A DNA stretch of 60,505 nucleotides, counting the filler, from Globobulimina sp. (Eukaryota): the NCBI GenBank assembly GCA_003354225.1. It is 11 parts of 11 records of this genome, joined end to end, with 100 filler letters (N's around TTAATTAATTAA, not from the genome) between each part and the next. Parts side by side here need not be neighbours in the genome. Positions count along the whole stretch, not along the records: positions 22,056 to 27,465 come from PIVH01000588.1; 10 more parts are not named here. The stretch is one strand, 5' to 3'. Below the pieces are notes generated by a model that was given only the letters and a program-made list of their open reading frames with translations, had not been told where the DNA came from and made no database searches. Of the stretch, positions 955 to 51,332 are shown in pieces. Position numbers and translations under genes: made by a program. Every line of letters begins with the position of its first letter. The first letter of the stretch is position 1.

Positions 955-1140
955 ATATCTGCAAATTAAGCATAAACACATATTAAGAACTGGCCAATAA
1001 AATAGTTCTTGGGTCGGAGTTATACATTAATTCTGGTTTTTATTTTTTGTTTTCTTTTTTCTATGTTTTCCAAACTTGCCTTAGATAACTTTGTAAAGCA
1101 TTTATTATTTAACATTCAATATAAATTTCACAATACACAG

Positions 1141-3078: not shown

Positions 3079-3213
3079 ATTAATTCTGCAAATTTACAAT
3101 CATATTTAAAATTTTTCTTATTATTTACAAATACAAACAAACTCGTTTCCGAAAGCAAACTACTCGCAAACGCCAGACTTACTTTTTCTTTTTTTCACAT
3201 TAAAAACAAAAAC

Positions 3214-4299
3214 TTGCTTCAAAAGGTACGAAAAGATAAGCGGTTTCGGCCAAAGAAGTTAACCGACCAACAGTTTAGAATGAGAAGAGCCGTAAATTGG
3301 CAATTTAGGCACGCAACAAAAACAAACGAACAATATGGATCAGTCGAAAAGTATTGGATTATATTCAATAAATTACACCAAAGACAAATAGATGATTTCA
3401 GTGAGGATAATATCATAGATTATATGATATGGAATAAAGAATGTAAGGCATCATTTGGATGGACAGCAGTGCATTCACATCAATTCGGAATACGTGACAT
3501 CGCACTGAAATATAATAAAAAGATCAAAGTCGATAAAACAGAAATGCCCAATTTATACAACTATAAAATCGCAGAAAAGAGGCAAAAGCCAGGAAAAGGA
3601 GGATCGCAGCCAATAAATGAACATATGATACATTTATGGACACAAATTATAAGAAAGGATCGGACCATCGATAAAATAACAAAACTATCATGGATTGCTA
3701 TTATAAATATGGCATTCACGGAGATTAAGAGAATCAGTGAATACACAATCGACATAAAAATAAAAGACAATCTCACATATAACAGCCTACAATTTGAGTA
3801 TGACATAGATGCAAATAATTGGAAACAATCAACATATATAATTTGGGAACGAGAGAAAGGAAAAACACATCAATTTAACTTTGCAAATAACACCTTAAAG
3901 TCGGCAATTATCTGCCAATGTAACACCAAAGAAAAGGTCTGCACCAAATGTGCATTGATTGAATTGACTGAATACAGATTGAAGCAAAGCAAAATAACAA
4001 ATCAACAATTTGATAGAAATCAATATATCTTCACCGACAATGACAAGCCAATAAACAAATATATGGTTGGAAAAATGATAAAAGAGTTATGTAGAAAGAC
4101 AGGATTTGATGAAACTAAGTATACATCACATGGATTTAGGAAAGGTGGTACACAAAAGGCCATAGCCGATGGTGTACCACTCCCACAAATACAAAAGCAA
4201 GCAGACTGGAATGGGCCAGCAATGATATTTCGTTATAACAATAATATAACAATAAGCAAACAAATAAATTTAATGAAAAGCGTCTATAAAACGCATTGA
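3214..4299 (+). CDS. Tyrosine recombinase (lambda integrase family)
   Basis: Full catalytic set: R in KRISEY, K in KGKT, HGFR, W in ADW, Y in FRY; first ATG at 3280. Confidence 0.92.
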   Translation: MLQKVRKDKRFRPKKLTDQQFRMRRAVNWQFRHATKTNEQYGSVEKYWIIFNKLHQRQIDDFSEDNIIDYMIWNKECKASFGWTAVHSHQFGIRDIALKYNKKIKVDKTEMPNLYNYKIAEKRQKPGKGGSQPINEHMIHLWTQIIRKDRTIDKITKLSWIAIINMAFTEIKRISEYTIDIKIKDNLTYNSLQFEYDIDANNWKQSTYIIWEREKGKTHQFNFANNTLKSAIICQCNTKEKVCTKCALIELTEYRLKQSKITNQQFDRNQYIFTDNDKPINKYMVGKMIKELCRKTGFDETKYTSHGFRKGGTQKAIADGVPLPQIQKQADWNGPAMIFRYNNNITISKQINLMKSVYKTH

Positions 4300-13813: not shown

Positions 13814-14007
13814 GTTTAACGGATAATTTGTATAAAGTATGATTAAGATGAGAGTAGCAACAAAACTTGACGAAAAGTTAAAAATCTTCGCTAACAAATC
13901 CCAACTCCCCAAGACCACGAAAGCTATACAAGTTAGATATTAGCGACCTTGCATTCCATTTGTTTCCTGTGCATCAGCATCAATACAATTGAATTGAAAT
14001 CAAGAGA

Positions 14008-15882
14008 ATGAGCAGTATTGTATGGTTCGTCTGCATTGCAATTTTAACTCGTCTGGTTGAATCAAACCGGTTTATTAATAACGAATCACAGCAAACCGGT
14101 TTACCAACAATAACCCCAAGTATTGAACCAACAACACTTGCACCATCAAAATGGTCTTCATGGTACGGAGGAAATGGTGGTGTATTACATGAACTTTATG
14201 GAATAAACAACTCAAGCTATGTGACAAAGATATGTGTGACGGAAGGATCAGTAGTAATTGCAATTGAGGTGGAATTTAGTGATGGCACAATCCAGGCGGC
14301 AGGGAATGGAGATGACTCTGCTGAATGTTATTCCGTTGGTAACAACGAGTGCTTCACAAATGTAACATTACGGTATGGAACGCTGGTTGATTCATTACAG
14401 TTTCATACTTCATTTGGTAAAGTAAGCCGGATTTGGGGCGGTTTTGGAGGTGGTGGTCCTTATTCAGTTTATGGTAATGGATGTATTTCAAAATTAGATG
14501 TTCGGACAGGCGATGCATTGGACGCAATACGATTTTATTTTGGTGAGATTGTGTTTTCAAACGCAACCAGCGATCACCCAACGGTGGCACCAATAGCAAT
14601 GCCTACCAATGAACCAACCACTGAACCAACAACAATTGCACCGTCGACATCCAATATTGATAAACAATGGTCTTCGTGGTACGGAGGAGTTGGCGGCGGA
14701 TTACATGAACTTTATGGAATAAACAACTCAAGCTATGTGACAAAGATATGTGTGACAGAAGGATCAGTAGTAATTGCAATTCTGGCAGAATTTAGTGATG
14801 GCACAATTCAGGTCGGAGGGAATGTAGATGAATTTGATGAATGTTATTCCGTTGGTAACAACGAGTGCTTCACAAATGTTACATTACGGTATGGAACGCT
14901 TGTCGATTCATTACAGTTTCATACTTCTTTTGGTAAAGTAGGCCCACATTGGGGTGGTTTTGGAGGTGGTGGTCCTTATTCAGTTTATGGTAATGGATGT
15001 ATTTCGAAATTAGATGTTCGGACAGGCGATGCATTGGATGCAATACGATTTTATTTTCGTGAGATTGTGTTTTCAAACGCAACCCGCGGCCCAACGGTGA
15101 TTTTAACAGCAATGCCTACCAATGAACCAACCACTGAACCAACAACAACGATTCCAACAACACTTGCACCATCAAAATGGTCTTCATGGTTCGGAGGAAA
15201 TGGTGGTGTATTACATGAACTTTATGGAATAAACAACTCAAGCTATGTGACAAAGATATGTGTGACAGAAGGATCAGTAGTAATTGCAATTGAGGTGGAA
15301 TTTAGTGATGGCACAATCCAGGTGGCAGGGAATGGAGATGACTCTGCTGAATGTTATTCCGTTGGTAACAACGAGTGCTTCACAAATGTAACGTTACGAT
15401 ACGGAGCGCTGGTTGATTTATTACAGTTTCATACTTCATTTGGTAAAGTAAGCAGAATTTGGGGTGGTTTTGGTGGTGGTGGTCCTTATTCAGTTTATGG
15501 TAATGGATGTATTTCAAAATTAGATGTTCGGACAGGCACTGCATTGGATGCAATACGATTTTATTTTGGTGAGATTGTGTTTTCAAACGCAACCAGCGAC
15601 CCAACTTCAGGTAATTTAATTTATATAATTGTTGACATCTTCACAAACATATAAATTCCAACAGTGATTCCCACAACGATTCCAACAACGATTCCAACAA
15701 CAATCCCTAGTATTGAACCAACAACGAATTCAACAGTAATTCCAACGGTGATTCCAACAGCAATTCCTACAATAACTCCAACAGTGATTCAAACAGCGTC
15801 TCCAGCTCATTCCAATAGCTTTGCAGTTTTATATTACACTCTGTTTTGCTTTTTTTTTGTTATGACTGATCACTTTTTTTAA
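14008..15882 (+). CDS. Secreted, probably GPI- or TM-anchored lectin with three jacalin-like domains and Thr/Pro stalks
   Basis: Signal peptide; three repeats of GGxGG...VDSLQFHTSFGK...WGGFGGG...RTGDALDAIRFYF; intron 15611-15664; hydrophobic C-terminus. Confidence 0.88.
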
Positions 15883-16812: not shown

Positions 16813-19800
16813 TCAATCAAGAGCTATTATTTGCTGTTGAATGTTAAGTTTAGACAAATCATCCGCTGCTTTGAGCCACTCTGAAAATCGTTCTACGAAT
16901 GGCTTAGGACCCGATAATATAATCCGATCAAACGGTGATAACTTTTCTACTCTACAACCCCCAGCATCACATTTTCTTTTTTGAATTATGTCAAATGCCG
17001 TGTCATTAATTGAACCCATTCTGCCCATATCTGGTACCGGTATATCAATATTGACATGTACTTCACCTTCAATTTCAATTTCAGGATCATCGTCAACTTT
17101 ATTCTCTTCCTTATCTTCCAATGTCATGCTGAAATCTGTTCCATTATCATCCAAAACTTGCGACAACATTTTCTCATCATTAGTCATCGACGACGTATTG
17201 TGTTGTGATAATTGTATCTCATCATTATGATTAATATCAGGATCCGGAGCACTTGTTTCAATCTGTAACGATTCTTCCGAACCACGAGAAGTCTCCAACT
17301 CTCCCAAATGTCGTGAGGTCTTAATAAGTTTGCTCTGTTTATCCATAGTGCTGCACCCTCGCTTTGAGACAAAGTGTTGCATCCTCGATACCCCGTATCC
17401 ATTTATTAAAAATGAGCGAATCCGGAACAAAGCTTTCGTTTCATTCCATTTATAAGCATGAATCTGCGCAAACTCTGTCAACTTTGGCTCAATGCTCTGA
17501 TCCGTATTTTGTTCGTGTTCACTGAAAATTAAATCTATCCAAAATCTCTTCGGATAGCGCGATTTTAAATATTTTAAATGGCCAATACAGGCCACATCCG
17601 ATGTGCTTTTATTATACCACACCAACAACACCCGACATGTATCCGTACCATATGTCAAATGATGATGTAACGCATTAATCATTGGCGTAACGCCCGTACC
17701 GCCGCATATTAATACAATTCTTCTCCAACATTGCCTTCCAAAGCCAAAGTTAATCGGTGCCAGCAACTGTTTTCTCTCAAACGGGCCCGTCAAACGCAAG
17801 GAATTATTGATCCGCAATGAATTTATAATTAGTGACATCCGGCCATGTTTATACAAGCGGACCAATAGAAACAACCGCCCCCTCTCTCTCGGCTTTGGTC
17901 TGCGCGTAAAACACTGCAAACAACTTTTCTGTTGATTTTTAGCAGCAAGCTTTTCCTCTTTAAGTCGAGTTCCATTATTACACAAAATGAAGTGTGGATT
18001 GATGGGAGTGTACGCGCGGGACACTGTTTGTTTGCCGGTATCGTGTAATAACACATAGTCCCCGGCACAAAACATGGTTCTTGCATCAATATCAAACTCC
18101 AACAACACCACTGGCCGACTGCAGTCCGCTGCGGACATCTTGGTCTTGCTCAATAACTTCACGATTCTAAAGCGCTTCGCATCGGACACTTTTTGAGTTT
18201 TGGCGGCCAAATCTGAGATAGTCAATCCATGCGATTTGTGTTTTAATAGCATCTGTTTCGAAATCATTCGCATTTTCTTGGCCTCCGCGGCCTCTGCAGC
18301 TGCGGCTTCATCGTCAGATATATTGTCAATGAGATGTATTAATTGGTCAATTTCAGGGCTGTCCAGGAATGCGTCCAATTTATGATGATCAAAGCCAACG
18401 TTGTCGGTCTCTTCGTCCCCATCGCTGTCAGATGGAGCGATATCCACTGCGTTGACGAATTTGGAGAAATTTCTATTGGTGAAGCCTCGTGGACTTACTT
18501 TTTGAGACTGGGAGGGAACCTCTCCAACAATCATTGTGGCCATTTGTTTTTTGGCCCATTCGGAATGTACGTATTTCTGCAGCCCATCTGGCGCTGTTTT
18601 GCCATGAAACAAGTCTGTGCAGTCCGTGCCAGTATGGTCCAATAACATTTTCCTTCCGCCGGGATGGCAGAGCTGCCATATTGTGACGTCCAACACATAT
18701 TTATCCACAATAATCCAAGCTGCGCCGGCGGATACTTTCTCGCCAATTTCATCCCATGTGAAAACATGGTAATTTGACTCGAATGCTATGCATATTCAAA
18801 TGAATATACTGTAGGTAACAAACGTATACTGTATACAGTACCTGAATATTCACTATTTTTCGACCATTTTGGATAATATCTTTTGTACATTTCACCGATA
18901 AAAATAAGTGAGACCAAAGGGCTAAACCAAACAGGTAACGATTGTAATATGGGTATGTCGAATGGTTGTAATCTCATCCAACCATACCAGATAGTAACAG
19001 GTGCGAGGAAATTAAGCAAGATTGCAAATAGCAAATGAAAATAATGTATCCTGTTGTACCATTCAGTTCTTTTCCAATTTTGAAACCAATATTGAACACC
19101 ATAACCACCTCCAAATTGAAAACATAACAAAGCCACACAAGATGTGCCCAATAAACCGTGTTTTGAATATGTCCCCGATGCAGTGGTACTTACTGCAAAA
19201 TAGGCGCTTGTTAAACTTGTCATTATACCTAATTTTATATTATTACATATATTTTTTTTGGACGGGCGCGTTGTTCATTTGCATGGTGCGCGTTGTTTTG
19301 GACGGGTGGGAGACGAATTTGGATGGTTTGTGTGATCTATTTTTTCGTACGTGTGCGGGGATACTTATTTCGTGTGCACACACAAGAAAATAGTGACACA
19401 CACACCAGCAACAATTGACCCGCACACGAAGAAAATATATACCGCACATTCAAGACCAATGTTTGTTAGCACATATTGTTCAAAATAAATACAAAACTAT
19501 ACTGTTTATCGTAGACAAACAAATGTTTCTATGTTAATTATGCGCTTAACAAAATACGACTAAAACCTCAGTGAACTATTGGTTTAAACAAAATATGTTA
19601 CGCAGTACAGTACACACCCAGCGATCCAATTTTTTTATGCGCGTCTTTCCACCATAACGTATGTCGTAAATACCTGGCGACAAATGCCGAGGTTGGATAT
19701 ATTAATCCAAACAAAAATATCATCGTTAAACCATGATACAATCGGACTTTATCAAAATCATTCAAATTTGTATTAGTTTTGCCAGTATACCAATTCACTA

Positions 19801-22055: not shown

Positions 22056-22239
22056 GTGATCACTGGATTATGCAATGCAATGATAATAAGAATAATAAAT
22101 GTAATACGGATAACGACCTTACAGTCATTCCGAATTCCGAGAAATTCGACAATGTTAATAAAACAAACGCAATCGATATCAATATAGAAATTCAGGAAAC
22201 GTACATCGATCTGGTCAATTCAGATGACTTTAATTCAGA
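22056..22239 (+). repeat. Truncated inverted paralogue of 27193-27385 (zinc-knuckle gene 5' part)
   Basis: DHWIMQCNDNKNNKCN...IDLVNSDDFNS matches the minus-strand gene, with substitutions and a 9-nt deletion. Confidence 0.9.
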
Positions 22240-22658
22240 GGTCCTAGGTCCCAATTTATATTGCGCAATATAAGAACAACCCCTAATATAAGATAATGCA
22301 CTCTGTGTGTGGGGTATCTCGTATGACACACTAGACTGACTACTCTATACTCGCTCATATATGACTACACCCCGATATACTATAGTAGCCTTCAGCACAC
22401 AACTCGTTCAGTTTCCTTCTCTGGAGGCCTATACTTTATATGCTTTCGGAGGTTGTATTGAGACCTATCCGTATATACGTAACCCATAGGAGCCTACAAA
22501 AAGCCTTTAGACTCACCTTGCGGGTTCGAATCTTCGGCTTATGGTATTATTGATGGATGGATTTAGCTGGCGTTTTGATGCATTGCATGATGACTACTAA
22601 TATTTAACAGATTAGGTTACTTACTTCACTAGACATAAATCTCAGTAAGTTGGGCAGC

Positions 22659-25054
22659 ATGGCTTCACAACAAAGCGCTGGAGATGAGGATAAAAAAGAT
22701 AATGCACCAGAACCAGCAGACGAAAAAGAAGAAAAACACGCAGGTGTCGGAGATGGTGGTGGTATAGTAACCCGCCGTGAGATACGTTCATTGTCCCCCG
22801 ACGAACAGAACCGATTTTTTGATGCAATTGATACAATGATGAAGGCCAAATCAGGTCCAGGCACCTCAGAGTTTTATCGCTGCGCTTCGTACCATGGACA
22901 ACCACCACCCATATATTGCGAACATGGCAGAGAAACATTTCCCGGATGGCATAGAATTTATATGTATGACTTTGAACAAGCGATACAAACCGCTGATAAA
23001 GAAAATGGAAACGATGGCAAAATTGCATTACCATACTGGTATACACATATATTTCGGCAGTTTTTCTGCAAATTGTTGCTCAAACTTATACACAGGGATT
23101 ACAACACCAATCCGCAAGATGGCATTCCCAGCATAATACGCCAGAGATTCGCCAATTGGCCCGATGATTTTTGGCCAGATTCCATGAAAAATCTCGGGCG
23201 AACTCAAAAATTACAGCGTGCGCCGGATGGCCAAGTGACTGCACAGTTGCGTGCCTACGATGTGAGCCGTGAGTGTAATGACTGTTTATTAGCGACGCAG
23301 CATTGGGCGCATGCCTCGACTCGTTTCGGTGGCTCGTATCCATCGATCGAGACGCCGCATAACAGTGTGCATGTAATAGCGGGCGGTGCCGGCGGACAAA
23401 TGAGCTCTGTGGCGTGGGCCGCGTACGATATCGTATTCTTCCTCCATCACTGTAATGTGGACCGTATTTATGAGCGGTATTTGGGATTAGAGCCAGATTC
23501 GTTTGTGGAATTTCGCAATTTCCAGGACACGCAACGGGTGGATATGTTTGATCGAACGTTTGAGCCCTTTCGTAAAGCGAATGGGGACAAATATTCACCG
23601 CATGACACGTTTAAGACTGAGCCGCTTGGATACAAATATGATAAGTTACCGTCTGTACCACAGCAACAATTGCGAGAGGCGCCGACCTTTTGCTTGTGGC
23701 CTCAGGTCAAAGTCTCTGAGTTTGAGTCGAAATGTTATCAAATTCATGTATGGATTGTGGATACAGAGAAGGAAGATGAATTTAAGGTATTTTTTTACAA
23801 TGAAATAAATATAAAAGGATAGGTTGCATATTTTTTGTTGCTGTCCAGGCACCGCAAAGACTGGAAGACATTGACTATGATTCACCAAATTATGCGGGTG
23901 GCGCAGGAATATTTGGGCGTGGTATGGAATGTGAAAATTGTGTGAACCGACCACCGCAAGATATTGCCGTTGATATTACGCAGGCTTTGCGTGATTTGGG
24001 TGTTAATCGGTACGGCGCCGCTGCCATTTGTAAGGTGCTGGAAACCACTGAGAATAGTACGGTTTTGCAAGCGGTGGGTGATACGCCTTTGGGCGACCCC
24101 ATTATAACTGGCCCATTGTTCGTGAATTGTGGTGGTGCTGAGTTGTTGGATGAGGATGACAAGAAAACAAACAATACGTCGGAAGTGGAAGCGTTGCAGC
24201 GATATCTACAAAAGTTTGGTTATTATGGGCCTGAACAAAAAATCGATGGCGATTATGGTCCTTTTACGTGTCAAGCGGTGAAAGATTATCAGACAGCCAC
24301 TGGTACTCTGAAAGTGGACGGCATTGCTGGGCCCAAAACGAGACAGTCCATAATTAATAGCAAACGATGTGATAACATTGGTATGTCTCTCCCCTTTCAT
24401 GTCAGTTAAAACTACAGGTTTCAGCTCGGAATTTGTATTAAGTGCATACTGCGGATAACTGTCAAGTGTTTCCGTGAATAATACATAGACCCGTTTGCGA
24501 AGAATGATGTCGTGGATAAATCCGTAGATTTTGCCAGTTGCAAATATGCGACTGAAAAGGAGATAAAATATTTTATCGCACCGCAACCAGGTTATTTGCA
24601 GCGAGATGGCGTGGAAGCAGTGATAGCAAAATCATGCGCTGAATATGAGAATAATTCTTCGTTGACATTTAAAAGCGTGGAAGAAGAGAAAGAATGTGAT
24701 ATAAAGTTTTCGTGGGTCATGTTTAACAAAGAAGAGGATCCATTACGCTATGATGGCTCCGGTGGCGTGTTAGGACGTGGTGGCAATGGCTTTGTTGAGT
24801 TTGATTTGGCGGAGAGATGGGCCCTTGGTTTGGGTGGCGATGAGGAGGCATTGTCGGATTTATTTGACCGGGAAACATGGCGTAGAGGGCAGCCGACCAT
24901 ATCTTTGTATTATACTGCTTTGCATGAATTGGGTCATGCTCTCGGATTGGTTCATAGTGCGGAGGCCGGCGATGTGATGAGTCCATGGTATGATCCCTCA
25001 CAAACGGCGTTATCTAAAAATGATGTTGAAAGTATTCAAAACATTGTTGGTTGA
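22659..25054 (+). CDS. Tyrosinase + PG-binding-like prodomain + matrixin (M10) metalloprotease fusion, 4 exons
   Basis: CuA YHG...CEHGRETFPGWHR; LPYWDY after splicing; CuB ETPHNSVH...FFLHHCNVDR; CENC; LQKFGYY...VDGIAGPKT; KRCD; HELGHALGLVH; VMSPWY; introns 23039-23095, 23787-23848, 24381-24488. Confidence 0.88.
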
Positions 25055-26015
25055 CAGCAATGACGGTATAATGATATATTATTAAAGTCAAAAGTTTTTT
25101 TTTGTTTTAGCTTTCTTTTATGACTTTTGTATGGAAAATAAATGGTTTGTTTGACATTTTCCCTAAGCTTATAATCTATGGTATTTTGTTTTGTATAAAT
25201 TAAATTTATAAACTTGTATTCTATTTTTATAATTATCGTTGCTTTGGTCTTAATTTAATCACATTTGCGTTAATTTTATTTCTTCCCATAACGGTTGCTG
25301 GTTTGTTAAAGGGAAAGATTCTGTATTCCAGGCAGGTTTATATTTTGAAACAAATGAATGCATAATTAAGATCTCTGCATTTTTTTAAGCACTGGTTTTT
25401 GATTGAATATTATTAAACATAAAAACAATTCAATAAACGATATGAATTAATATGAATTAAGCAATGATATAAAAATATAAATTACACAATGCATCAAATA
25501 AATTTAACAATCCGCAATGAAAATGAGTTAAAACTAAAAAATATTATACGATATCAATCATTCCGATCACAATATATATGGTCACACAAATAAGCGCGGG
25601 CAGATGTGCTATATTCCAAAACACACTCTCCCCAAAGCCATCGATAGATGCATCACAATGGGTATTAATCAAAAACGTCAGGGTTATGTTTATTTTTTCA
25701 GCGTCAAATTAACATATTTCAATACCTTCATTTCAAACATTTTCTGGCGCTCAAAAAATAAACATATCCCATTATTCACTTTTTTTCATTAATAGAAAGT
25801 ATTTTTTCCCAATCAAATGAGAAAATACTTCCACTTTTTTTCTGACAAATCAACAAATTATTCGCATCATATTTTTCTATTGTTTCACTTCACTGCGTCA
25901 TGCATTTGTTGTGTGGTCAAAAAAAAATCCCGATAAACATTATAAATCCGACCAATATCATTCACGAAGTTACTGACACCAATATAATAAATCTAATTTT
26001 CTCAATGCGATATAA

Positions 26016-27458
26016 TTAATGATCAGATTCCTCATCCAATCTTTTATTTAAATTTGCACAAAAATTATCTGATTTTATCGGACTTTTTGGGTATTTTGGC
26101 AAAATACTTTTTCTTGGACTTGCCAATGAAACATAATTAAACGAACAATCACTTGTTTGCTCATCACCACTTTCTTCAAATTCTTCAAATTCATCATCAG
26201 CAAAATCAGCAATGAATTGCATGAATGATTTAATTGATCTCGATGTGTTATAACGCGCTTTGGTTTGTGCGCGAACACATTCTTTTTTTTCATCATCCTC
26301 ACTGTCATTCTTTTTATTGACTTGCATCATTCTCATTTTCTTGTTTGTTTTATCTAATTCATCAAAGAAATTTACCATTGACTCTGAAAAATGTTGATTT
26401 GTTTGATTTGGTTCCATATTTCTTGTTGAATCTAATACTTTTTTCCGAGGCTGTTGTTGATGTATCATCGGATTATCTCGTTTTGCTGTTTCTTTTTTAT
26501 TTATGGTATGCTGCAAAGCTGCAAAATTGGTATGATTCGCACGATTATGTTTATTATGATCGTTATCATATTTTTCAATGGCTTTTTGTTTGTTTATTTC
26601 ATGATATTTTGTTGGCCGCGCTTTTGGAATATTGGGTCGAATGCGTGGGTCCAATTTATTTTGTGCCATAAAATCTGACTTTGGTTTCGCAATATTTCTC
26701 GTTTCCGTTTCCGTTTCCATTTTGTTTTCCGTGTTAACTAAGTCATCATTCTTATTACGGCTCAACCAGTCAAGAACACGCTTATTATTATTATTATTAT
26801 TTGGTGCTGGTAGTCTTTGAATGGCATCAAATGTAATTCCGTGTTTATTGATTGTATTTAATTGATTATGATGATTATAATTATTATTTTTTATTTCTTC
26901 CTTTATCAACTTATTAACATACGAAGCAAGACATGCATCGTCAAATTTTATTGCTGTGAAATTATTATTATATATATTATTTTTCTCAGATTCGTTGATT
27001 TTATTTGTCTTATTATTATTACTGTTGATATTATTGAGTGCTATTATATTGTTTAAATGTGGGTGTGTTTGAATTTGTTTTTCTTCCAAATATTTGTCAA
27101 AATCTGTATTATTAATTGATGGCACATAAAAAATGTAAGTAAGATAAATCCGTAAACAATATAAATATAATATGATTTTGATACCTTCTAAATCTGAATT
27201 AAAGTCATCTGAATCGACCAGATCGATATACGTACTGCACGTTTCCTGAATTTCTAGATTGATATCGATTGCGTTTGTTTTATTAACATTGTCCAATTTC
27301 TCGGAATTCGGAATGACTGTAAGGTTATTATCCATATTACATTTATTATTCTTATTATCATTGCAGTGCATAATCCAGTGATCACCACACAATTTGCAAA
27401 TATGACAATGGTAATTTGGTGGAGGACGGGATGCAGATTCTTTGGCAGTGATTCCCAT
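26016..27458 (-). CDS. Zinc-knuckle protein with Asn-rich low-complexity region, probably 5' truncated
   Basis: PPPNYHCHICKLCGDHWIMHC knuckle; probable in-frame intron at about 27105-27184. Confidence 0.65.
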   Translation of the reverse strand: MGITAKESASRPPPNYHCHICKLCGDHWIMHCNDNKNNKCNMDNNLTVIPNSEKLDNVNKTNAIDINLEIQETCSTYIDLVDSDDFNSDLEGIKIILYLYCLRIYLTYIFYVPSINNTDFDKYLEEKQIQTHPHLNNIIALNNINSNNNKTNKINESEKNNIYNNNFTAIKFDDACLASYVNKLIKEEIKNNNYNHHNQLNTINKHGITFDAIQRLPAPNNNNNNKRVLDWLSRNKNDDLVNTENKMETETETRNIAKPKSDFMAQNKLDPRIRPNIPKARPTKYHEINKQKAIEKYDNDHNKHNRANHTNFAALQHTINKKETAKRDNPMIHQQQPRKKVLDSTRNMEPNQTNQHFSESMVNFFDELDKTNKKMRMMQVNKKNDSEDDEKKECVRAQTKARYNTSRSIKSFMQFIADFADDEFEEFEESGDEQTSDCSFNYVSLASPRKSILPKYPKSPIKSDNFCANLNKRLDEESDH

Positions 27459-27565
27459 AATGAAANNNNNNNNNNNNNNNNNNNNNNNNNNNNNNNNNNN
27501 NNNNNNNNNTTAATTAATTAANNNNNNNNNNNNNNNNNNNNNNNNNNNNNNNNNNNNNNNNNNNN

Positions 27566-30610: not shown

Positions 30611-32876
30611 TTATTCCAGTAAAGGAGTCTGTTGATTGGCATGCGGATTGGGAGTGACTGGCGCATTCCATTGAATAACGGGTATCGAACTATTACTGAT
30701 AGTATCCAATGGTTGCTGTGGTACAGGTTCCTCATGAAAATCGCCATACATTATCTCTAGACTCACATTGCTTGTCATGAAGGACTGCTCCGTCTCCGTC
30801 TTCTCCTCTTCAATGTCGTCGCCCTCGTCCACAAAGCTCAATTTTATCAAATCATCCTGGCCGCCATCGAGTACATTGCCCACCACAAACGACACCCTCC
30901 TCCGATTAGTCCTGACATCCGCAGATGTGATGCGCGATAAATAGCTCACCGCCGGAGGAGACTCATCCATTTTAGTCGAGCTCTCAGCAATGTCGTTTTT
31001 ATTGTTATTGGAAGTTGCTTTCAAAAAAGGGAACCTCGAGTACGACAATGCCATTCTCGACTGTCTGTACGCTTCGTTCCGAACATATTCAACTGACAAA
31101 CGTTTCTTATTCGCTTTCCGTCGCTGTACACCGTCCCCTCTGCTCGCAGTCACACTGACACTCATATCATCCTTTTGTTTGATACCTTTTCATAGACACA
31201 AATTGATTCGAATGTGATTTAATTGATTCGAATGTGACACAAATTGATATTAACATACCGGGTAACCATCGCATGATAACTACCTTGGCATCGTCGTCCT
31301 GTAAGGCTACTTTTAATGCATTGCGAATAAAACGAGTACGTTTTCCTAACTGTCGTTTGCTTGCAATATGCAATTGTTTGGTGGGGAGTAAATGTAAGTT
31401 ATTGTCTTTCACGTAAAATATGTCCTGAACATATGGCGAATGATGCGAGTAATTATCCTGCGGCTCATTGAAAGCGCGAAAGTCAATGATTTCCAATTTC
31501 AATTTGTATAAAGCTTTTAGTAAACGGTTCTGGTGCCCCCATTTACCATAAGTCTTCGTATGAATACCTACAAATACAACACAATAAATATTCAGATGTT
31601 GATTTGAAAAAAAAAAAAAATGTAAACACATTCAACACATTTGGATCAGATTCGGTATACACAAATTTGATAATAGTGTTTCGTGGAAACATACAGTAAT
31701 AAACATGATGCAAATACGGCGAAGTGGGCGACTGCGCAGTCGGTGTAATCATGTAACTGGTCCCTGGACTTTCGCTCACGGTGTGAATCTCCGAAATGAT
31801 ATGACTCGAACGCATGGTGGCTTTCCTGGTGCGCTGTACATAAACCTGTCTATGTTTGGAGCCCATTTTGAGTGTCATTGTGAGCAATGACGGCGAGAGC
31901 ATCACCGAAAATAAAACTGCCATCAATACCGACGTCATCGTGTCTTCGTCCATCAAGCCTGAAGCATACGACGTTGACGTCAAAATAAAGGCAAATTCAC
32001 ACCACGTGCCCATGGAAAACGAAATCGTGGCAAATTCGACAATTTTAATTGGTTTGCTCGTCGCAAAAAAGCCAGTCGCATATTTGCCAATGATGCATAC
32101 GAAATAAATGAGCGCATTGATCACCACATTGGGATTGGTGAAGAAGTCCCGGATCGGTATTTCAAAGCCAATGGTGCAGGAGAAGAAGATGCGTAATATC
32201 CAATGCATAATCCGCTTCATCTGTTTCTCCCAAACATGGTGTATAGTGTGGTCAGTGCAGAACATTAAGCCAGCCAAGAATGCGCCTAATAAATAGGAGG
32301 ACTTTGCATAATAACAAGCGGGGACAAGCAGTAAAATTGAAGAAAATAACAACATCAATATGCCATATTCATGGTATTTAATGTCGATTTTGTCCATAAT
32401 GTATTTGATTGCAGAGGGTGAGATTCGTATTGCTACGAAACCGAATATTATTATTAAAGCTGGCGAGACGATGAAACACATAATGATGTCGAATATGGAG
32501 GGGTCGGAGCCAGCTAATTCCTGTAATATGGATAGCAACATTAAGGCAATGACATCATCGAATACTGCAGCGGCAATAATGAGTTGTCCAGTGGGCGTGT
32601 TTAAGATACCGCCGGTACTCAATAAATTGAGTGCAATGCCGGTGGAGGTGGGCGCGAAACAGGCACCAATTGCTACGGCATGGAGGGGGTTGAATGCATT
32701 GACTCCGACGATTAGGAAAGTTAAAAATGTGCCAATTAATAAAGGAAGCATGGAGCCAAAGATTGCTATCATTAAACCACGCGTACCGACTACTTTTAAT
32801 ACGCCCATATTGACACCAATGCCGGCTTCGACCACTAAGAGGATTAAGGCTATGTCGCCAATCACCATCAAGGCGC
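30611..32876 (-). CDS. CPA2-type cation/H+ antiporter with cytoplasmic tail, 5' truncated, multi-exon
   Basis: LLVVEAG, APTSTGIA, AAAVFDDV, LLGAFLAGL, IFFSCTIGF, GKY; many TM helices. Confidence 0.85.
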
Positions 32877-33075
32877 TCGAACAAATAACTCCCGGTATCA
32901 GGTTGCGCATTGATCAGGCGGGGACCAATGCCCAAATCCGATACTCTTTGAACGCCCTCATGAACGGCTGTCTCGNNNNNNNNNNNNNNNNNNNNNNNNN
33001 NNNNNNNNNNNNNNNNNNNTTAATTAATTAANNNNNNNNNNNNNNNNNNNNNNNNNNNNNNNNNNNNNNNNNNNN

Positions 33076-35395: not shown

Positions 35396-35441
35396 CTTAG
35401 CTGAAAGAGTGAGTTTTAAAAAAAGTTTAGTTTAATACATC

Positions 35442-38360
35442 ATGGCACATGATAGAACTGCAATCAGTGGAAGCAACACAATCAGTGGAAGCAACATATG
35501 GAGAATACCAGAATTATCAGCACTCCAAGCAACATATCTATGCAGTGGGTATATTCGTATCGAGTTTGAAGATGCCTACCATATCCCAAACGATATTGCA
35601 ATATTATGTACAAACTTTTTCCACACCAACCGTAACATTTTAACTCAATATTTACCAGATTTGCGCTGCAAAATATGCCATCTAAATACAATCAAATTTA
35701 TTTTCAGCTTCAATACTGGTGATACTGCCACAGATTTATCACCTAAATGGAACATATCAGTACCATATTTGCCAAAAAACATTGTCAAAATTGAATTGGA
35801 TGTCCATATGGAAATATTAGGAACGACACTGCAGTATAAACAGCATTGCGTCTTAGTCGCAGGACCAAATATATTGCTTGCAAGTTATATTATAAATAGC
35901 AGCTCATCGTTTGCTGCGGAAATAACACATTTGAATGCTTTGCAATTAAAACTCGAAATATTTAATATGCAACAATACGACAAAAATAACCATATTATAC
36001 ATCCATATGCATCCACACCGCATGGCACAATGACATATTTAACATACCCGTCATCTGCTTTTGTCTGGAGGATGGAAACAGAAAACATACATAAAATCCA
36101 AAAAGCCTCAGCTGGGGTTTACATCACAAGCGCATTATTTCTATGCGAATCCTTCAAATGGATGGTGAAAATATCATATTACGACATTGTTGATGCAGAT
36201 TTATGTATGTATTTGGCCGCATTATCGCCACAAATTGAGAGATTATGTATTTACTATAAAATAGATTTTGAAGAAATTGAAAGGTTTACAGATGGTACGC
36301 ATGTTTTTAGTGTTGCGGAGGGACTGAGTTTATGGAAAATTGATTTTTTCAAAAGTGCGGAAATTAAAGATTTACTAAACATTACAATTAAAATAGAAAT
36401 ATCTATAATGGATATATTTTACTCTGATGATTACAAACAAAATGCACATACACATACTCACAATACCTCATTAACGACGATAAATGGCCAATATGTATGG
36501 AAAATTGATGAACCGCAAGCAGTGAGTAACCTGAAATCAGCGGGAAATGGCGAAGATTGTATCAGCCCTTTGTTTGAACTACGTGACAGTGATTTTAAAT
36601 GGTGTTTGAAAGCGTATCCCAATGGTTATTCCACTGATAATATTGGTAAAATGAATACCTTTTTGAGATTTGTATCGCATCCACCCACTGTTGCATCGTT
36701 ATGTGTTCATTATGAAATCGAATTAATCGAAGCAAATATTAAGTTTGCTGCAGTTGAAACATTCAGTTTTGACTCGCCATCATTTGGATGGACGGCTAAC
36801 TTATTGGCAACCGATGATGTTAAACATTGCCAGACATTTACATTTAAAGTAAATATTAAAATCATTGATATATTTGATAATAACGGAGATATTATGACGG
36901 ATAAATACCGGCATATACAGCATGCGCATAAACATAACACTATTTATAAAAATATGAGAGTTTGCAAGAATTACAGGCAAAATCCATATGTTTATCAATG
37001 GAAAGTCAATGATTTAGACACTGTGAACAGAATAAAAGCAGCAGTGAATGGAATGAATTTTTTAAGCTCAATATTTACATTATTTGGTATGAAATGGTAT
37101 TTGGAATTTATGCCCGTTCCTTGTGATTATGATCCGGAATATGATGATAAAACGTTTAAAAACGACTATTCCGTATTATATCTTTGTGCTGCATCCATTT
37201 CGCCAAATATTCATGTCATTCGAATAAATTATACCTTAGCTTTGAAAGAAACGAATACCATTTATAAGAATTGTAGCAAATTGGATGGGTGTTTTAGCAC
37301 TGGATGGTCGAATACGGCGCTTAAAAGGAAAGAAATTGACGATTTGGATAGTTTTACATTTGGCGTTTCCCTCAATTTTATAGATATTTATGATAAAAAT
37401 GGGCAAAACATCACCGATGAACATATTAGTTACGATGCAGACATTGAACACGAAGAGAAAGGAGATATTGGACTGTCACTCAATACATTGTTGACAGATA
37501 CATTTGAATGGAAAATCGATGATAATCAGTTGATGGAAAAAATAAAAACTGCAGAAAATGCACAATTTTTTATGAGTGACATGTTTGTTATGCATGGATT
37601 GAAGTGGAAAATGAAAATCTATTCAAATGGCACGAAGCCACAAAGAAAGGGTATATTCAATTGGTATTTTAATTTAATATCAATGCCGCCGAATATCTCA
37701 AAAGTATCATTGTTTTATAAGATTGTTGAGACAGAGAGCGGTGCAATGGATGTGGATAAAACATCGATGCGATGCGATTCATCGCAGTTTGGATGGGGAC
37801 AAAATAAATTGAAATTGAATGATATTTTAAAATTTGATAAATTGTGCTTTGTTTTAGATATAACAATCATTGACATCTTTGATAAAAGCGGAAGGAAATT
37901 AAACATGAAAGAATATGATAAAATACCATTGCAATCGGAATCATTGGATGAAAGTGAATGGAAATTGAATGAAATAAAATGGAGAATTGTGGACGAAGAG
38001 TTGATTAAAAATATAAAGAAAGCGCACGTTGGAGAATCATTTAAAAGCGGGCTGTATGACATTGATGGATATAAATGGTTTTTGCAATTGGCACCAAACG
38101 GAATGAATAAAGAAGAAAAAGGTGAGACAAAATTATTTATTTCAATAGAATTTTTGCCAGACAATGTTGAAAGTATTTCATTTTATTTTGAACTTCGTAT
38201 ATTAGAAAGTAAGATATCATATAGTAATCATGGTCATTTTAGAGATGATGGATTATCCAAATCGTGGTTGACTTCACAAATAAAAATAGCTCAGTTACAA
38301 GATTTGAATCAGTTGACGTTGACGGCAAAAATGAAAATTGTGGATGTCTATCATAAATAA
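35442..38360 (+). CDS. Multi-MATH/TRAF-domain protein
   Basis: About five repeats of WKI.D...S..F....KW.L..YPNG...GW...IIDIFD. Confidence 0.85.
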   Translation: MAHDRTAISGSNTISGSNIWRIPELSALQATYLCSGYIRIEFEDAYHIPNDIAILCTNFFHTNRNILTQYLPDLRCKICHLNTIKFIFSFNTGDTATDLSPKWNISVPYLPKNIVKIELDVHMEILGTTLQYKQHCVLVAGPNILLASYIINSSSSFAAEITHLNALQLKLEIFNMQQYDKNNHIIHPYASTPHGTMTYLTYPSSAFVWRMETENIHKIQKASAGVYITSALFLCESFKWMVKISYYDIVDADLCMYLAALSPQIERLCIYYKIDFEEIERFTDGTHVFSVAEGLSLWKIDFFKSAEIKDLLNITIKIEISIMDIFYSDDYKQNAHTHTHNTSLTTINGQYVWKIDEPQAVSNLKSAGNGEDCISPLFELRDSDFKWCLKAYPNGYSTDNIGKMNTFLRFVSHPPTVASLCVHYEIELIEANIKFAAVETFSFDSPSFGWTANLLATDDVKHCQTFTFKVNIKIIDIFDNNGDIMTDKYRHIQHAHKHNTIYKNMRVCKNYRQNPYVYQWKVNDLDTVNRIKAAVNGMNFLSSIFTLFGMKWYLEFMPVPCDYDPEYDDKTFKNDYSVLYLCAASISPNIHVIRINYTLALKETNTIYKNCSKLDGCFSTGWSNTALKRKEIDDLDSFTFGVSLNFIDIYDKNGQNITDEHISYDADIEHEEKGDIGLSLNTLLTDTFEWKIDDNQLMEKIKTAENAQFFMSDMFVMHGLKWKMKIYSNGTKPQRKGIFNWYFNLISMPPNISKVSLFYKIVETESGAMDVDKTSMRCDSSQFGWGQNKLKLNDILKFDKLCFVLDITIIDIFDKSGRKLNMKEYDKIPLQSESLDESEWKLNEIKWRIVDEELIKNIKKAHVGESFKSGLYDIDGYKWFLQLAPNGMNKEEKGETKLFISIEFLPDNVESISFYFELRILESKISYSNHGHFRDDGLSKSWLTSQIKIAQLQDLNQLTLTAKMKIVDVYHK

Positions 38361-43845: not shown

Positions 43846-44093
43846 TTATTTTGTTCAAATACAAAACATCATCAAAAATCACCTGTTGTATATCTGCGAG
43901 ATCTCCTAAATCGCCACTATTCAAACTGACTGTTTTTATAATTCTCACATCCTTTGGTGTTGATACTTTCTCCTTTCCCCCATTGTCTCCCTTNNNNNNN
44001 NNNNNNNNNNNNNNNNNNNNNNNNNNNNNNNNNNNNNTTAATTAATTAANNNNNNNNNNNNNNNNNNNNNNNNNNNNNNNNNNNNNNNNNNNN

Positions 44094-49381: not shown

Positions 49382-49382
49382 C

Positions 49383-49500
49383 ACCTGGACGGGGAGCGAT
49401 AGCGCCCAGCTTTATGGGCTGGAACGCTGGGGTGATCCTTACTTCTCCATCAACCCACGCGGGCATGTGAGCGTGCAACCACGCGGAGACCGTGGCGGAA
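49383..49500 (+). CDS. speA: Foreign fragment: N-terminus of a cyanobacterial biosynthetic arginine decarboxylase
   Basis: WTGSDSAQLYGLERWGDPYFSINPRGHVSVQPRGDRGG matches the Synechococcus-type SpeA start as I recall it; abrupt rise in GC. Confidence 0.8.
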
Positions 49501-51263: not shown

Positions 51264-51332
51264 GCTGCGATTCTCAGACGGTTTTTCAGCTATTTTAGTA
51301 ATTAGTATCAAAAAACATCATTGAACTGCAAC

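What the first reader, a model, noticed from the sequence alone, without database searches (positions are those of the whole stretch)
22659..25054. Tyrosinase fused to a latent matrix metalloprotease
Seen: three canonical introns join an intact six-His tyrosinase, a C-terminal domain with CENC, a PG-binding-like prodomain with a cysteine-switch-like KRCD, and an M10 domain with HExGHxxGxxH and a Met-turn. There is no signal peptide. Known: fungal protyrosinases carry a CxxC-bearing C-terminal shielding domain and are activated by proteolysis, and MMPs are held latent by a cysteine switch. Inference: a double-locked, self-activating phenoloxidase for cross-linking (test or cement), wound sealing or defence. 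I do not recognise this as a characterised architecture.
Basis: partly seen in the sequence, partly recalled or inferred. Interest (0 to 1): 0.75.

Follow-up and report, generated by a model that had tools for sequence, protein, structure and literature searches.

The report
Latent tyrosinase fused to metalloprotease
A real, spliced and expressed gene joins a capped copper oxidase (tyrosinase) to a locked zinc protease in one protein, and it belongs to a sizeable, unstudied family of such fusions in single-celled eukaryotes that seem to work inside the cell rather than outside it.

Summary
Window 22659-25054 (+) is a four-exon gene with three GT-AG introns of 57, 62 and 108 nt. It encodes an open 722-aa protein with Pfam Tyrosinase, PG_binding_1 and Peptidase_M10. 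Contigs of three public runs skip exactly these introns; the source-like DNA run does not.

The fusion is not unique. 27 of 32 long relatives carry the same three domains. 83 stored relatives match a family profile end to end. Named ones come from a foraminifer transcriptome and from volvocine green algae.

A predicted structure of a 67%-identical relative (pTM 0.82) resembles capped hemocyanin units and latent fungal pro-tyrosinases in one half and proMMP-9 in the other. The zinc-blocking position is Cys in this gene's clade and Asp in most others.

No member examined shows a clear signal peptide. Many start with Met-Gly or carry C2 or EF-hand domains, so an intracellular, membrane- or calcium-linked role is more likely than secreted cement.

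Self-activation by the fused protease is plausible but untested. Seven literature searches found no paper on the fusion. I rate it a new variant of known kinds, of moderate to high interest.

The parts
22659..23038 (+). Exon 1: acidic, probably disordered N-terminus and the CuA half of the tyrosinase. Includes H79 (22893-22895), Cys87 of the C-x-H motif (22917-22919), H89 (22923-22925) and H98 (22950-22952).
   Evidence: The start codon is uncertain.
23039..23095 (+). Intron 1: 57 nt, GT..AG, phase 2. It has no stop and is a multiple of 3, so genomic reading gives a false 19-aa insert.
   Evidence: Joint 23037>23095 in one contig each of runs X5, X6 and X7, none in X1. Relatives have no insert here.
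23096..23786 (+). Exon 2: CuB half with H215 (23358-23360), H219 (23370-23372) and H244/H245 (23445-23450); tyrosine motif LGYKYD; proline-rich linker; first strands of the cap domain.
23787..23848 (+). Intron 2: 62 nt, GT..AG, phase 0.
   Evidence: Joint 23784>23847 in X7. Loose ends at 23787 and 23847 in X5 and X6 read the letters of the neighbouring exon.
23849..24380 (+). Exon 3: rest of the beta-sandwich cap domain (whole cap about 23679-24121), with candidate placeholder F379 (23912-23914) and CENC (23930-23941). Then an acidic variable linker, PG_binding_1 (24176-24349) and KRCD (24362-24373; switch Cys531 at 24368-24370).
   Evidence: Fold of the relative.
24381..24488 (+). Intron 3: 108 nt, GT..AG, phase 1. 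It lies between the switch peptide and the catalytic domain.
   Evidence: Joint 24379>24488 in X5, X6 and X7, none in X1.
24489..25054 (+). Exon 4: M10 catalytic domain (Pfam match 24551-25045), HELGHALGLVH (24923-24955), Ser691, Met-turn M698 (24977-24979), stop TGA 25052-25054.
22237..22598 (.). Dispersed repeat directly upstream of the start codon. It may have displaced or replaced an ancestral first exon.
   Evidence: Summed word depth is thousands in X1 and X5 against about 10-20 for the X1 single-copy flanks. No tRNA and no Rfam family.

Best explanation
SHOWN. This is one intact, spliced, transcribed gene for a 722-aa protein built as a chain of two zymogens.

- Front half: a type-3 copper oxidase. 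It has a tyrosinase core with six His, the C-x-H thioether cysteine and the Y-x-Y end motif. A beta-sandwich cap domain follows, carrying a conserved Phe (F379) six residues before a CxxC pair. This layout matches latent fungal pro-tyrosinases and single hemocyanin units.
- Back half: a latent matrixin-like zinc protease. It has a PG_binding_1 three-helix prodomain and a switch peptide (KRC531D). The catalytic domain carries HExxHxxGxxH-S and a Met-turn.
- The gene belongs to a conserved family of unicellular eukaryotes in which the two halves have evolved together.

INFERRED working.
1. The protein stays doubly locked: Phe/cap over the copper site, Cys thiol on the zinc.
2. A trigger releases the cysteine switch. 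It could be thiol modification by oxidants or by o-quinones, or calcium or membrane events in relatives that carry C2 or EF-hand domains.
3. The protease then cuts the linkers, in cis or between molecules. Candidate sites are the proline-rich core-cap linker and the variable cap-prodomain linker.
4. The cap leaves and the tyrosinase makes DOPA and quinones that cross-link or kill locally.
5. Quinones attacking further switch thiols would make activation self-amplifying.

The place of action is most likely the cytosolic side of membranes, not the outside of the cell.

The confidence figure is for the whole statement, inferred working included. For the shown part alone (a real fused gene of a conserved family with both modules in zymogen form) I would give about 0.95.
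For: Gene and message
- Open spliced frame.
- All three introns are skipped in contigs of X5, X6 and X7, where depth is high on 22237-25132 and falls sharply downstream of 25133 (near zero in X5). The source-like X1 has a colinear 2000-nt contig across introns 2 and 3 and no joints.
- Complete transcriptome ORFs of relatives carry all three domains.

Domains.

Conservation in 84 full-span sequences
- Copper His 77-81 of 84; C-x-H Cys 75; each CxxC Cys 78.
- Zn His 79, 74 and 76; catalytic Glu 68; Met-turn 77.
- Candidate placeholder Phe 75 of 84, the rest mainly Leu, Ile or Trp.

Switch
- The column holds Cys in 19 and Asp in 53 of 84.
- These are exactly the two residues known to block the zinc in metzincin zymogens, Asp for instance in the bacterial MMP karilysin (PMC9629494, passages read).
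- The Cys clade is nearly monophyletic in trees of both halves.

Fold, from the AF2 model of P0001 (66.6% identical to this protein; pLDDT 84.5, pTM 0.82)
- Residues 92-505 match an Octopus hemocyanin unit: Z 34.3, rmsd 3.3 A, 346 of 382 aligned.
- Latent abPPO4: Z 29.7, 379 aligned.
- Pro-MelB: about 385 aligned, against 279 for the cap-less active form.
- The back half matches proMMP-9 pro plus catalytic domains: E 2.9e-12, TM 0.75 of the target.

Unit evolution: pairwise distances of the two halves correlate at r 0.70, with 0 of 500 label shuffles reaching it.

Intracellular signature
- 23 of 80 Met-starting members begin with MG, many as MGxxxS/T.
- C2 in 14 of 54 and 5 of 32.
- EF-hand in 1 of 54 and 3 of 32; Dpy-30 in 1 of 54.
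- No clear signal peptide in 31 checked.
Against: - No step of the activation was or could be tested here.
- In hemocyanins the same cap is never removed in vivo (recalled), so a cap does not prove proteolytic activation.
- At least 8 of 84 members have Ala, Gln, Leu or Val in place of the catalytic Glu, and 5 more have a gap there. They keep the whole architecture, so protease activity is not needed everywhere.
- 12 of 84 have neither Cys nor Asp at the switch column.
- The MMP structural-zinc histidines are absent in this gene. His stands at one of those columns in only 12 of 84, so the domain's stability and activity are unproven.
- Placeholder and switch contacts rest on sequence position and fold matches. 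I had no coordinates to measure distances.
- This gene's N-terminus is uncertain and lacks the MG start of its nearest relatives. Its own location is inferred from the family.
- The runs with the spliced form are not on record as RNA. That they are RNA is inferred from the joints and the depth profile.
- P0030 has a hydrophobic stretch at residues 27-36 (score 2.07).
Confidence: 0.45

Rival explanations
1. Two enzymes on one tether with a shared target and no self-activation. The protease cuts some substrate protein, and the tyrosinase oxidises its tyrosines or free phenols to cross-link the products. The cap is moved aside without cleavage, for example by lipids, calcium or conformational change, as in phenoloxidase activation of hemocyanins. 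The switch is opened by another factor.
For: - The closest fold is the hemocyanin functional unit (Z 34.3).
- Its cap is not cut off in vivo, and detergents or lipids can make it oxidase-active (recalled).
- Members without the catalytic Glu keep intact copper sites.
- The two halves stay together and co-evolve. This equally fits a shared target.
Against: - The cap has the Phe-then-CxxC layout of fungal zymogens that are activated by cleavage.
- Both modules show zymogen features side by side.
- No candidate substrate is known.
Confidence: 0.27
2. A secreted cross-linker for the test lining, cement, cyst wall or wound plug outside the cell. Export would be by an unrecognised route or by a missing 5' exon that encodes a signal peptide.
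For: - The 5' end of this gene is not settled.
- Canonical MMPs and many tyrosinases act outside cells (established knowledge).
- The closest named relatives come from a test-building foraminifer: the name string MMETSP0190 is Rosalina sp. per PMC6783311 (passage read).
Against: - No N-terminus among 31 checked looks like a signal peptide, with one doubtful case, P0030.
- Its nearest relatives begin MGGLCPKE, an acylation-type start and not a signal peptide.
- 23 of 80 members start with MG.
- The accessory domains are C2, EF-hand and Dpy-30, all typical of cytosolic proteins.
- Fungal pro-tyrosinases with a CxxC cap also lack signal peptides (recalled).
Confidence: 0.08
3. The copper half is not an enzyme but an oxygen or redox sensor that stays capped like a hemocyanin unit and gates the protease. 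The output is proteolysis that responds to oxygen.
For: - The best structural and sequence matches are oxygen-carrying hemocyanin units, cap included.
- The cap's blocking residue is conserved.
- Benthic foraminifera live across steep oxygen gradients (PMC6783311, abstract seen in the listing).
Against: - The Glu-x-x-His-Asn arrangement around the first CuB histidine is linked to true tyrosinase activity (recalled). Here the Glu and His are invariant and the Asn nearly invariant.
- The CxxC copper-loading motif is that of enzymes.
- No precedent is known.
- Members without a working protease site would have no output.
Confidence: 0.05
4. Artefact: two neighbouring genes, or a dead gene, merged by an optimistic gene model.
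For: - The model was first drawn by eye.
- The assembly is fragmented, and the contig has an inverted repeat at its ends.
Against: - Exon 3 alone runs from the tyrosinase cap through PG_binding_1 to the switch in one open frame.
- Joints link exon 2 to 3 and exon 3 to 4 in independent runs.
- 27 of 32 long relatives and 51 of 54 representatives have the same three domains, in the same order wherever positions were returned.
- All catalytic residues are intact.
Confidence: 0.02

Closest known systems
Latent fungal pro-tyrosinases (Agaricus bisporus PPO4, Aspergillus oryzae MelB)
   Same: - Tyrosinase core with the C-x-H cysteine and the Y-x-Y end motif.
- A beta-sandwich C-terminal cap, a blocking Phe shortly before a CxxC pair, and no signal peptide.
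- The model of the relative aligns over core plus cap: Z 28-30, 379-389 residues.
- Layout and activation by cleavage are described in PMC4157443.
   Different: - Here the cap is followed in the same chain by a protease zymogen.
- Fungal enzymes are cut by separate, largely unidentified proteases (recalled).
- The Phe-to-CxxC spacing is 6 here against 8 in abPPO4.
- Pfam's fungal C-terminal domain model was not matched.
Molluscan hemocyanin functional units
   Same: - Best sequence match.
- Best fold match, covering core and cap: 1js8, Z 34.3, rmsd 3.3 A, 346 of 382 aligned, 26% identity.
   Different: - This is a single unit, not a string of 7-8 secreted units.
- The blocking residue is Phe rather than Leu (Leu recalled).
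- It carries a CxxC, and the Glu/Asn pair that I recall as a tyrosinase mark is conserved.
- It is fused to a protease and has no signal peptide.
Matrix metalloproteinase zymogens (proMMP-9, -1, -3)
   Same: - A PG_binding_1-fold prodomain, then a zinc-blocking Cys, then a catalytic domain with HExxHxxGxxH-S and a Met-turn.
- The fold of pro plus catalytic parts matches proMMP-9: TM 0.75 of the target, 25% identity.
- The catalytic domain matches MMP-1 at E 6e-13.
   Different: - The switch is KRCDNID, not PRCGxPD.
- The structural-zinc histidines are absent.
- There is an extra insert of about 17 residues before the active-site helix.
- There is no signal peptide and no hemopexin domain.
- By sequence the prodomain is nearer to bacterial and phage peptidoglycan-binding domains than to MMP prodomains: 8 hits at E<=1, none an MMP.
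Karilysin (bacterial MMP of Tannerella forsythia) and other Asp-switch metzincins
   Same: - Among the best sequence matches of the catalytic domain (E 1.5e-12 for P0001).
- Most of this family (53 of 84) has Asp where this gene has Cys.
- Karilysin uses an aspartate switch (PMC9629494).
   Different: - Karilysin has a short pro-peptide (recalled), not a PG_binding_1 domain.
- It is secreted (KLIKK secretory protease, PMC4404884 abstract, listing).
- It is not fused to an oxidase.
- This gene itself has Cys.
Arthropod prophenoloxidase activating cascade (likeness in working only)
   Same: A latent phenoloxidase is switched on by limited proteolysis after a trigger, in arthropods including peptidoglycan recognition (established knowledge, recalled).
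   Different: - Arthropods use separate recognition proteins and clip-domain serine proteases, and a different branch of type-3 copper proteins, all in the haemolymph.
- Here the candidate sensor-like domain, a metalloprotease and the oxidase sit in one chain, probably inside the cell.
- There is no homology of the protease parts.

Membership tests
Tyrosinase / type-3 copper proteins (Pfam PF00264) | Profile match above the curated cut-off | tested here: met
   114.1 bits against a cut-off of 22.6, E 1.6e-32.
Tyrosinase / type-3 copper proteins (Pfam PF00264) | Six copper-binding histidines (CuA x3, CuB x3) | tested here: met
   H79, H89, H98, H215, H219 and H245 are present. Each is His in 77-81 of 84 family members.
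Tyrosinase / type-3 copper proteins (Pfam PF00264) | Phenol oxidase activity and copper content | not testable with these tools
   Needs expressed protein.
Latent pro-tyrosinase with C-terminal shielding domain (abPPO4 / MelB type) | Beta-sandwich C-terminal domain packed on the core | tested here: met
   Tested on the AF2 model of relative P0001, not on this protein itself. 379-389 residues align to the latent forms, against 279 to the cap-less active MelB.
Latent pro-tyrosinase with C-terminal shielding domain (abPPO4 / MelB type) | Placeholder aromatic residue reaching into the copper site | tested here: inconclusive
   F379 is conserved (Phe in 75 of 84) and lies 6 residues before the CxxC, as Phe454 lies 8 before Cys462 in abPPO4. 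No coordinates were available to measure its contact.
Latent pro-tyrosinase with C-terminal shielding domain (abPPO4 / MelB type) | CxxC motif in the C-terminal domain | tested here: met
   C385-E-N-C388. Each Cys is present in 78 of 84.
Latent pro-tyrosinase with C-terminal shielding domain (abPPO4 / MelB type) | Activation by proteolytic removal of the cap | not testable with these tools
   Inferred only.
Matrixins (MEROPS M10A, Pfam PF00413) | Profile match; HExxHxxGxxH, Ser after the third His, Met-turn | tested here: met
   91.7 bits against a cut-off of 24. HELGHALGLVH-S at 680-691 and M698.
Matrixins (MEROPS M10A, Pfam PF00413) | Cysteine switch in a PG_binding_1-fold prodomain (canonical PRCGxPD) | tested here: inconclusive
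   The prodomain is met (E 6.5e-17). A Cys stands at the expected place and is conserved in its clade, 19 of 84 with Asp in 53. The pro plus catalytic fold matches proMMP-9. The motif is KRCDNID, not the canonical one, and zinc contact was not measured.
Matrixins (MEROPS M10A, Pfam PF00413) | Second (structural) zinc site with its His ligands | tested here: not met
   In the alignment to MMP-1, the ligand positions read Lys/Glu, Arg and Glu in this protein. At one such column His occurs in only 12 of 84 members.
Matrixins (MEROPS M10A, Pfam PF00413) | Secretion signal or extracellular action | tested here: not met
   No signal-peptide-like N-terminus by a crude hydropathy test. The family carries cytosolic-type starts and domains. 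The start codon of this gene is uncertain.
Molluscan hemocyanin | Chain of several functional units, secreted oxygen carrier | tested here: not met
   There is one unit only, followed by a protease. The true hemocyanins in the profile search match in 6-8 stretches (P0034, P0078, P0112).

The most novel reading that the evidence does not exclude
A whole prophenoloxidase cascade folded into one intracellular protein.

1. The PG_binding_1 domain, which by sequence is nearer to bacterial and phage peptidoglycan binders than to MMP prodomains, acts as a ligand sensor. The ligand could be bacterial wall fragments reaching the cytosol or a phagosome membrane. In relatives with C2 or EF-hand domains, calcium entry at a wound could be the trigger.
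2. Ligand binding pulls the Cys (or Asp) switch off the zinc.
3. The protease uncaps the tyrosinase.
4. Quinones then kill, or seal, on the spot and open further switches.

This would be a protist innate-defence or wound device, analogous to but independent of the arthropod melanisation cascade.
Probability: 0.12. Interest if true: 0.85.

Novelty: new variant of a known kind. Interest (0 to 1): 0.62.

Why it matters
Tyrosinases and matrixins are both textbook zymogens, but each normally depends on a separate activator. For fungal pro-tyrosinases the activating protease is still mostly unknown (recalled).

- **A fused natural experiment.** A conserved family that fuses the two offers a testable case of a built-in activator: one recombinant protein, three point mutants.
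- **A challenge to the usual picture of matrixins.** The family's Met-Gly starts and C2 and EF-hand domains point to matrixin-type proteases and tyrosinases working on the cytosolic side of membranes. This runs against the usual view of both enzyme kinds.
- **A case of switch exchange.** The Cys/Asp exchange at one alignment column shows switch residues swapping within one family.
- **Biological leads.** For foraminifera and green algae it flags a candidate for wound sealing, wall hardening or defence chemistry.

Tried and rejected

- Complex prediction with the tyrosinase-plus-cap part against the pro-protease part of P0001: no verdict (median 0.16, mark 0.34). This is neither for nor against binding. 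The queue was full before one search was accepted.
- The look-up of sequencing runs: no RNA holder listed on record.
- Whole-genome search: no genome is held for this window.
- Cluster look-up for organism names: switched off. Most relatives therefore remain without taxon.
- Protein atlas: best scores 0.76, below the 0.9 that counts. It returned only M10/PG_binding clusters.

**Searches that found nothing**
- An upstream exon encoding the MGGLCPKE start of close relatives: none in the window by tblastn.
- The upstream high-depth repeat: no tRNA, no Rfam family, and only one copy of its tRNA-like 19-mer in the window.
- The downstream ORF 26016-27464 (-): no Pfam family.
- Short M10 proteins like exon 4: 16 hits, nearly all from contigs of 0.6-4 kb. 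They are probably fragments and give no conclusion on stand-alone forms.
- Prokaryotes: 61 loci match only the tyrosinase part (query residues 82-487). None has a PG_binding or M10 relative within 3 kb. The scan was seeded with tyrosinase patterns only, so this is weak evidence of absence.

**Slips in my own scripts and calls**
- Searches had exon boundaries off by one or two bases, fixed.
- mis-indexed the four CuA-region positions (three His and the C-x-H Cys), corrected.
- One search was not run by the machine.
- crashed on an index and was repeated.

**Readings rejected**
- Two merged genes.
- A pseudogene.
- A canonical secreted MMP.
Full report
**Setting**

The window is not one stretch of genome. 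It is 11 contigs of 5400-5416 nt, sorted by length and joined by N44-TTAATTAATTAA-N44 spacers. The finding lies in the fifth contig, 22056-27465, and only that is its real neighbourhood. Other contigs carry ordinary eukaryotic genes. No whole genome is held.

**The gene**

- Reading the + strand with GT..AG introns gives exons 22659-23038, 23096-23786, 23849-24380 and 24489-25054.
- The introns are 57, 62 and 108 nt. The CDS is 2169 nt and gives 722 residues with no internal stop (after boundary slips).
- Exons have 46% GC and introns 26-39%.
- Intron 1 is a multiple of three without a stop, so the genomic ORF reads through it. Relatives have no residues there.
- The spliced protein aligns from about residue 36 to the last residue with its relatives, without indels at the three junctions.

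**Is it one message?**

I laid contigs of four public runs on the contig.
- X1 is nearly identical and behaves as the source DNA. It has a colinear 2000-nt contig across introns 2 and 3 and no joints.
- X5 is nearly identical: 263 of 316 laid pieces are at 99% or more.
- X6 and X7 come from a relative; most pieces are at 90-95%.

The joints match my introns exactly:
- 23037>23095 (57 nt) in X5, X6 and X7.
- 23784>23847 (62 nt) in X7, with loose ends in X5 and X6 that read the neighbouring exon.
- 24379>24488 (108 nt) in X5, X6 and X7.

In X5, X6 and X7 depth is high from 22237 to 25132 and falls sharply downstream (near zero in X5, about 1-30 in X6 and X7). These runs are not on record as RNA. 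That they are RNA is my inference from the joints and the depth.

Exon 3 alone carries the end of the tyrosinase cap, the PG_binding_1 domain and the switch in one frame, and joints tie it to both neighbours. The domains therefore sit on one spliced message. Complete transcriptome ORFs of relatives say the same.

**Domains and motifs**

Pfam gives Tyrosinase (E 1.6e-32), PG_binding_1 (6.5e-17) and Peptidase_M10 (5.8e-26).

Present in the protein:
- The six copper histidines, and the Cys of a C-x-H motif (YCEHG).
- The Y-x-Y end motif (LGYKYD).
- CENC at 385-388 and KRCD at 529-532.
- HELGHALGLVH-S at 680-691 and the Met-turn M698.

**The family**

- A word-indexed search for longer proteins found 32 relatives. 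27 carry all three Pfam families. Three have Tyrosinase plus PG_binding_1 and break off before or inside the protease part. Two are plain tyrosinases.
- The nearest are 61-73% identical over the whole length.
- Named ones are two transcripts of MMETSP0190, which is the foraminifer Rosalina sp. according to PMC6783311 (passage read). The others are hypothetical proteins of the green algae Edaphochlamys debaryana and Gonium pectorale.
- A profile of 26 members, run against 1.84 billion representatives, gave 1990 proteins at E<=1e-30. Among the best 150, by my hand count, 63 match in one stretch over at least 600 of the 748 profile positions. The rest are fragments, hemocyanins and PG_binding repeat proteins.
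- Of the 172 stored proteins plus this one, 84 match end to end.
- Of 54 newly found representatives, 51 have the three domains in the order Tyrosinase, PG_binding_1, M10.
- Pairwise distances of the two halves correlate (r 0.70; 0 of 500 label shuffles reach it). Kinship alone inflates such a figure, but it argues against repeated domain shuffling.
- In one genome per prokaryote species, 61 loci match only the tyrosinase part, some including the cap. None has a PG_binding or M10 relative within 3 kb. This is weak evidence, because the scan was seeded with tyrosinase patterns only.

**Conservation of the working residues (84 sequences)**

| Feature | Count of 84 |
|---|---|
| Copper His | 77-81 |
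| C-x-H Cys | 75 |
| Each CxxC Cys | 78 |
| Phe six residues before the CxxC | 75 (others include Leu, Ile, Trp) |
| Zinc His | 79, 74, 76 |
| Catalytic Glu | 68 |
| Met-turn | 77 |
| Switch column: Asp | 53 |
| Switch column: Cys | 19 (including this gene) |
| Switch column: something else | 12 |

Cys and Asp are the two residues known to block the catalytic zinc in metzincin zymogens, and both can occur within one family. PMC9629494 (passages read) names the Asp switch of astacins, fragilysin and the bacterial MMP karilysin, and the Cys of myroilysin and of vertebrate MMPs. I take this as the strongest sequence evidence that the column is a real latency switch. The Cys members form a nearly clean clade in trees of either half.

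Against a universal need for proteolysis, at least 8 members have another residue in place of the catalytic Glu.

**Structure**

The spliced protein could not be sent to the folding tool, so I folded P0001 (66.6% identical) with the family alignment.
- Mean pLDDT is 84.5 and pTM 0.82. Only the first 89 residues are disordered.
- Residues 92-505 match an Octopus hemocyanin functional unit, core and cap: Z 34.3, rmsd 3.3 A, 346 of 382 aligned.
- They also match latent mushroom tyrosinase abPPO4: Z 29.7, 379 aligned.
- A. oryzae pro-tyrosinase aligns over about 385 residues, against 279 for the active form without the cap.
- The back half matches the pro plus catalytic domains of human proMMP-9: E 2.9e-12, TM 0.75 of the target, 25% identity.

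Both halves therefore look like the locked forms of their kinds.

The abPPO4 paper (PMC4157443, passages read) describes three things. Phe454 is the placeholder. The CXXC at 462-465 is the copper-loading motif. [quoted passage not shown] The Phe-then-CxxC layout is the same here. I had no coordinates, so the contacts of F379 and C531 are inferred, not measured.

**Where it differs from MMPs**

- The histidines of the structural zinc site are replaced. His stands at one such column in only 12 of 84.
- The switch reads KRCDNID.
- An insert of about 17 residues precedes the active-site helix in this clade.
- By sequence the prodomain finds bacterial and phage peptidoglycan-binding domains and no MMP (8 hits at E<=1).
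- I therefore call it a matrixin-like M10 domain, not a canonical MMP.

**Where it probably acts**

- None of 31 N-termini has the early hydrophobic stretch of a signal peptide by a crude hydropathy window. The doubtful case is P0030, with a stretch at residues 27-36.
- 23 of 80 members that start with Met begin with Met-Gly, many as MGxxxS/T or with nearby Cys. I recall these as marks of N-myristoylation and palmitoylation.
- C2 domains precede the tyrosinase in 14 of 54 and 5 of 32.
- EF-hands follow the protease in 1 of 54 and 3 of 32. One member ends in a Dpy-30 motif and one starts with an alpha/beta hydrolase.
- P0024 has a single membrane span before the tyrosinase.
- All this points to the cytosolic face of membranes and, in part of the family, to calcium.
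- This gene's own model starts MASQQS. Contigs of the related organism stay open upstream of 22669, and a dispersed repeat lies at 22237-22598. The true start is therefore open.

**Working model and rivals**

Most likely (about 0.45) is a doubly locked protein in which release of the Cys switch lets the protease cut the linkers and free the tyrosinase.
- The core-cap linker is proline-rich with a conserved Leu/Met-Arg-Glu. This is loosely compatible with the Pro-x-x-hydrophobic taste of MMPs (recalled; weak).
- The cap-prodomain linker is variable, acidic and less confident in the model.
- Quinones made by the first active molecules would attack further switch thiols, which would give a self-amplifying burst. 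That step is pure inference.

Rivals:
- A tethered pair acting on a shared target without self-cleavage (0.27).
- An oxygen or redox sensor gating the protease (0.05).
- An artefact (0.02).

**Novelty**

Seven full-text searches were made, six combining tyrosinase with M10, matrixin, PG_binding, metalloprotease, foraminifera, C2 or EF-hand terms and one on switch latency. None found a paper on the fusion. Subscription journals are not covered. The parts are known kinds; their conserved fusion, the intracellular signature and the Cys/Asp switch split are new as far as I could see. The architecture is already visible in public databases as hypothetical proteins. I rate it a new variant of known kinds, interest 0.62.

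**Limits**

- No biochemical step was tested.
- Most relatives have no taxon label, because the cluster look-up was off.
- The structure is of a relative.
- The complex prediction gave no verdict.

Noticed in passing
window 1-60505: The window is 11 separate contigs of 5400-5416 nt in order of falling length, joined by N44 + TTAATTAATTAA + N44 spacers. Neighbouring 'regions' are therefore not neighbours in the genome.
   Followed up: yes
window 22056-22254 and 27178-27385: Inverted repeat at the two ends of the finding's contig (150 nt at 95% and 56 nt at 84%). Both arms encode a similar peptide (...DHWIM.CNDNKNNKC...). The right arm is part of a 497-aa open frame on the minus strand (26016-27509) with a zinc-knuckle-like CxxCxxxxHxxxxC and no Pfam match. 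It could be a partial inverted duplication or an assembly artefact.
   Followed up: partly
window 22237-22598: Dispersed repeat just upstream of the start codon. Summed depth is in the thousands in two runs, against about 10-20 for the single-copy flanks. It contains a tRNA-T-arm-like GGTTCGAATC, but ARAGORN and Rfam find nothing. It may be a SINE-like element.
   Followed up: partly
window 22669 (transcript-like contigs of runs X6, X7): In the related organism the message differs upstream of 22669 and stays open (...VQPGKKAPAK-QSAGDED), with 111-203 further letters. The N-terminus differs between close relatives.
   Followed up: partly
window 24821-24971: A 149-nt skip with CC..GC ends inside the M10 exon in X6 and X7, at low depth (15.7 and 31) with only 26 letters on the shorter side. 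It would remove the active-site helix. It is probably a mis-join or a rare variant in the relative.
   Followed up: no
window 1006-4299: Adjacent open frames with a reverse transcriptase (RVT_1) and a tyrosine recombinase (Phage_integrase), the pairing of DIRS-like retroelements.
   Followed up: no
window 13993-15654, 16813-18795, 31543-32913, 35436-38360, 44038-46131, 48224-49411, 50145-51317: Ordinary eukaryotic genes on other contigs: jacalin-repeat lectin, cytochrome b5 fused to an FAD/NAD reductase, Na/H exchanger, MATH-domain protein, P-type ATPase, OTU protease, Brix protein.
   Followed up: no
proteins P0064, P0084, P0024 (relatives): Unusual additions to the fusion: an N-terminal alpha/beta hydrolase (Abhydrolase_3), a C-terminal Dpy-30 docking motif, and a Cys-rich N-terminus with one membrane span.
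   Followed up: no
protein P0005 (relative): It looks like a chimera of two Rosalina transcripts. It is identical to P0002 in some parts and to P0009 in others, switching more than once. It was left out of alignment A1 but is among the 84.
   Followed up: partly
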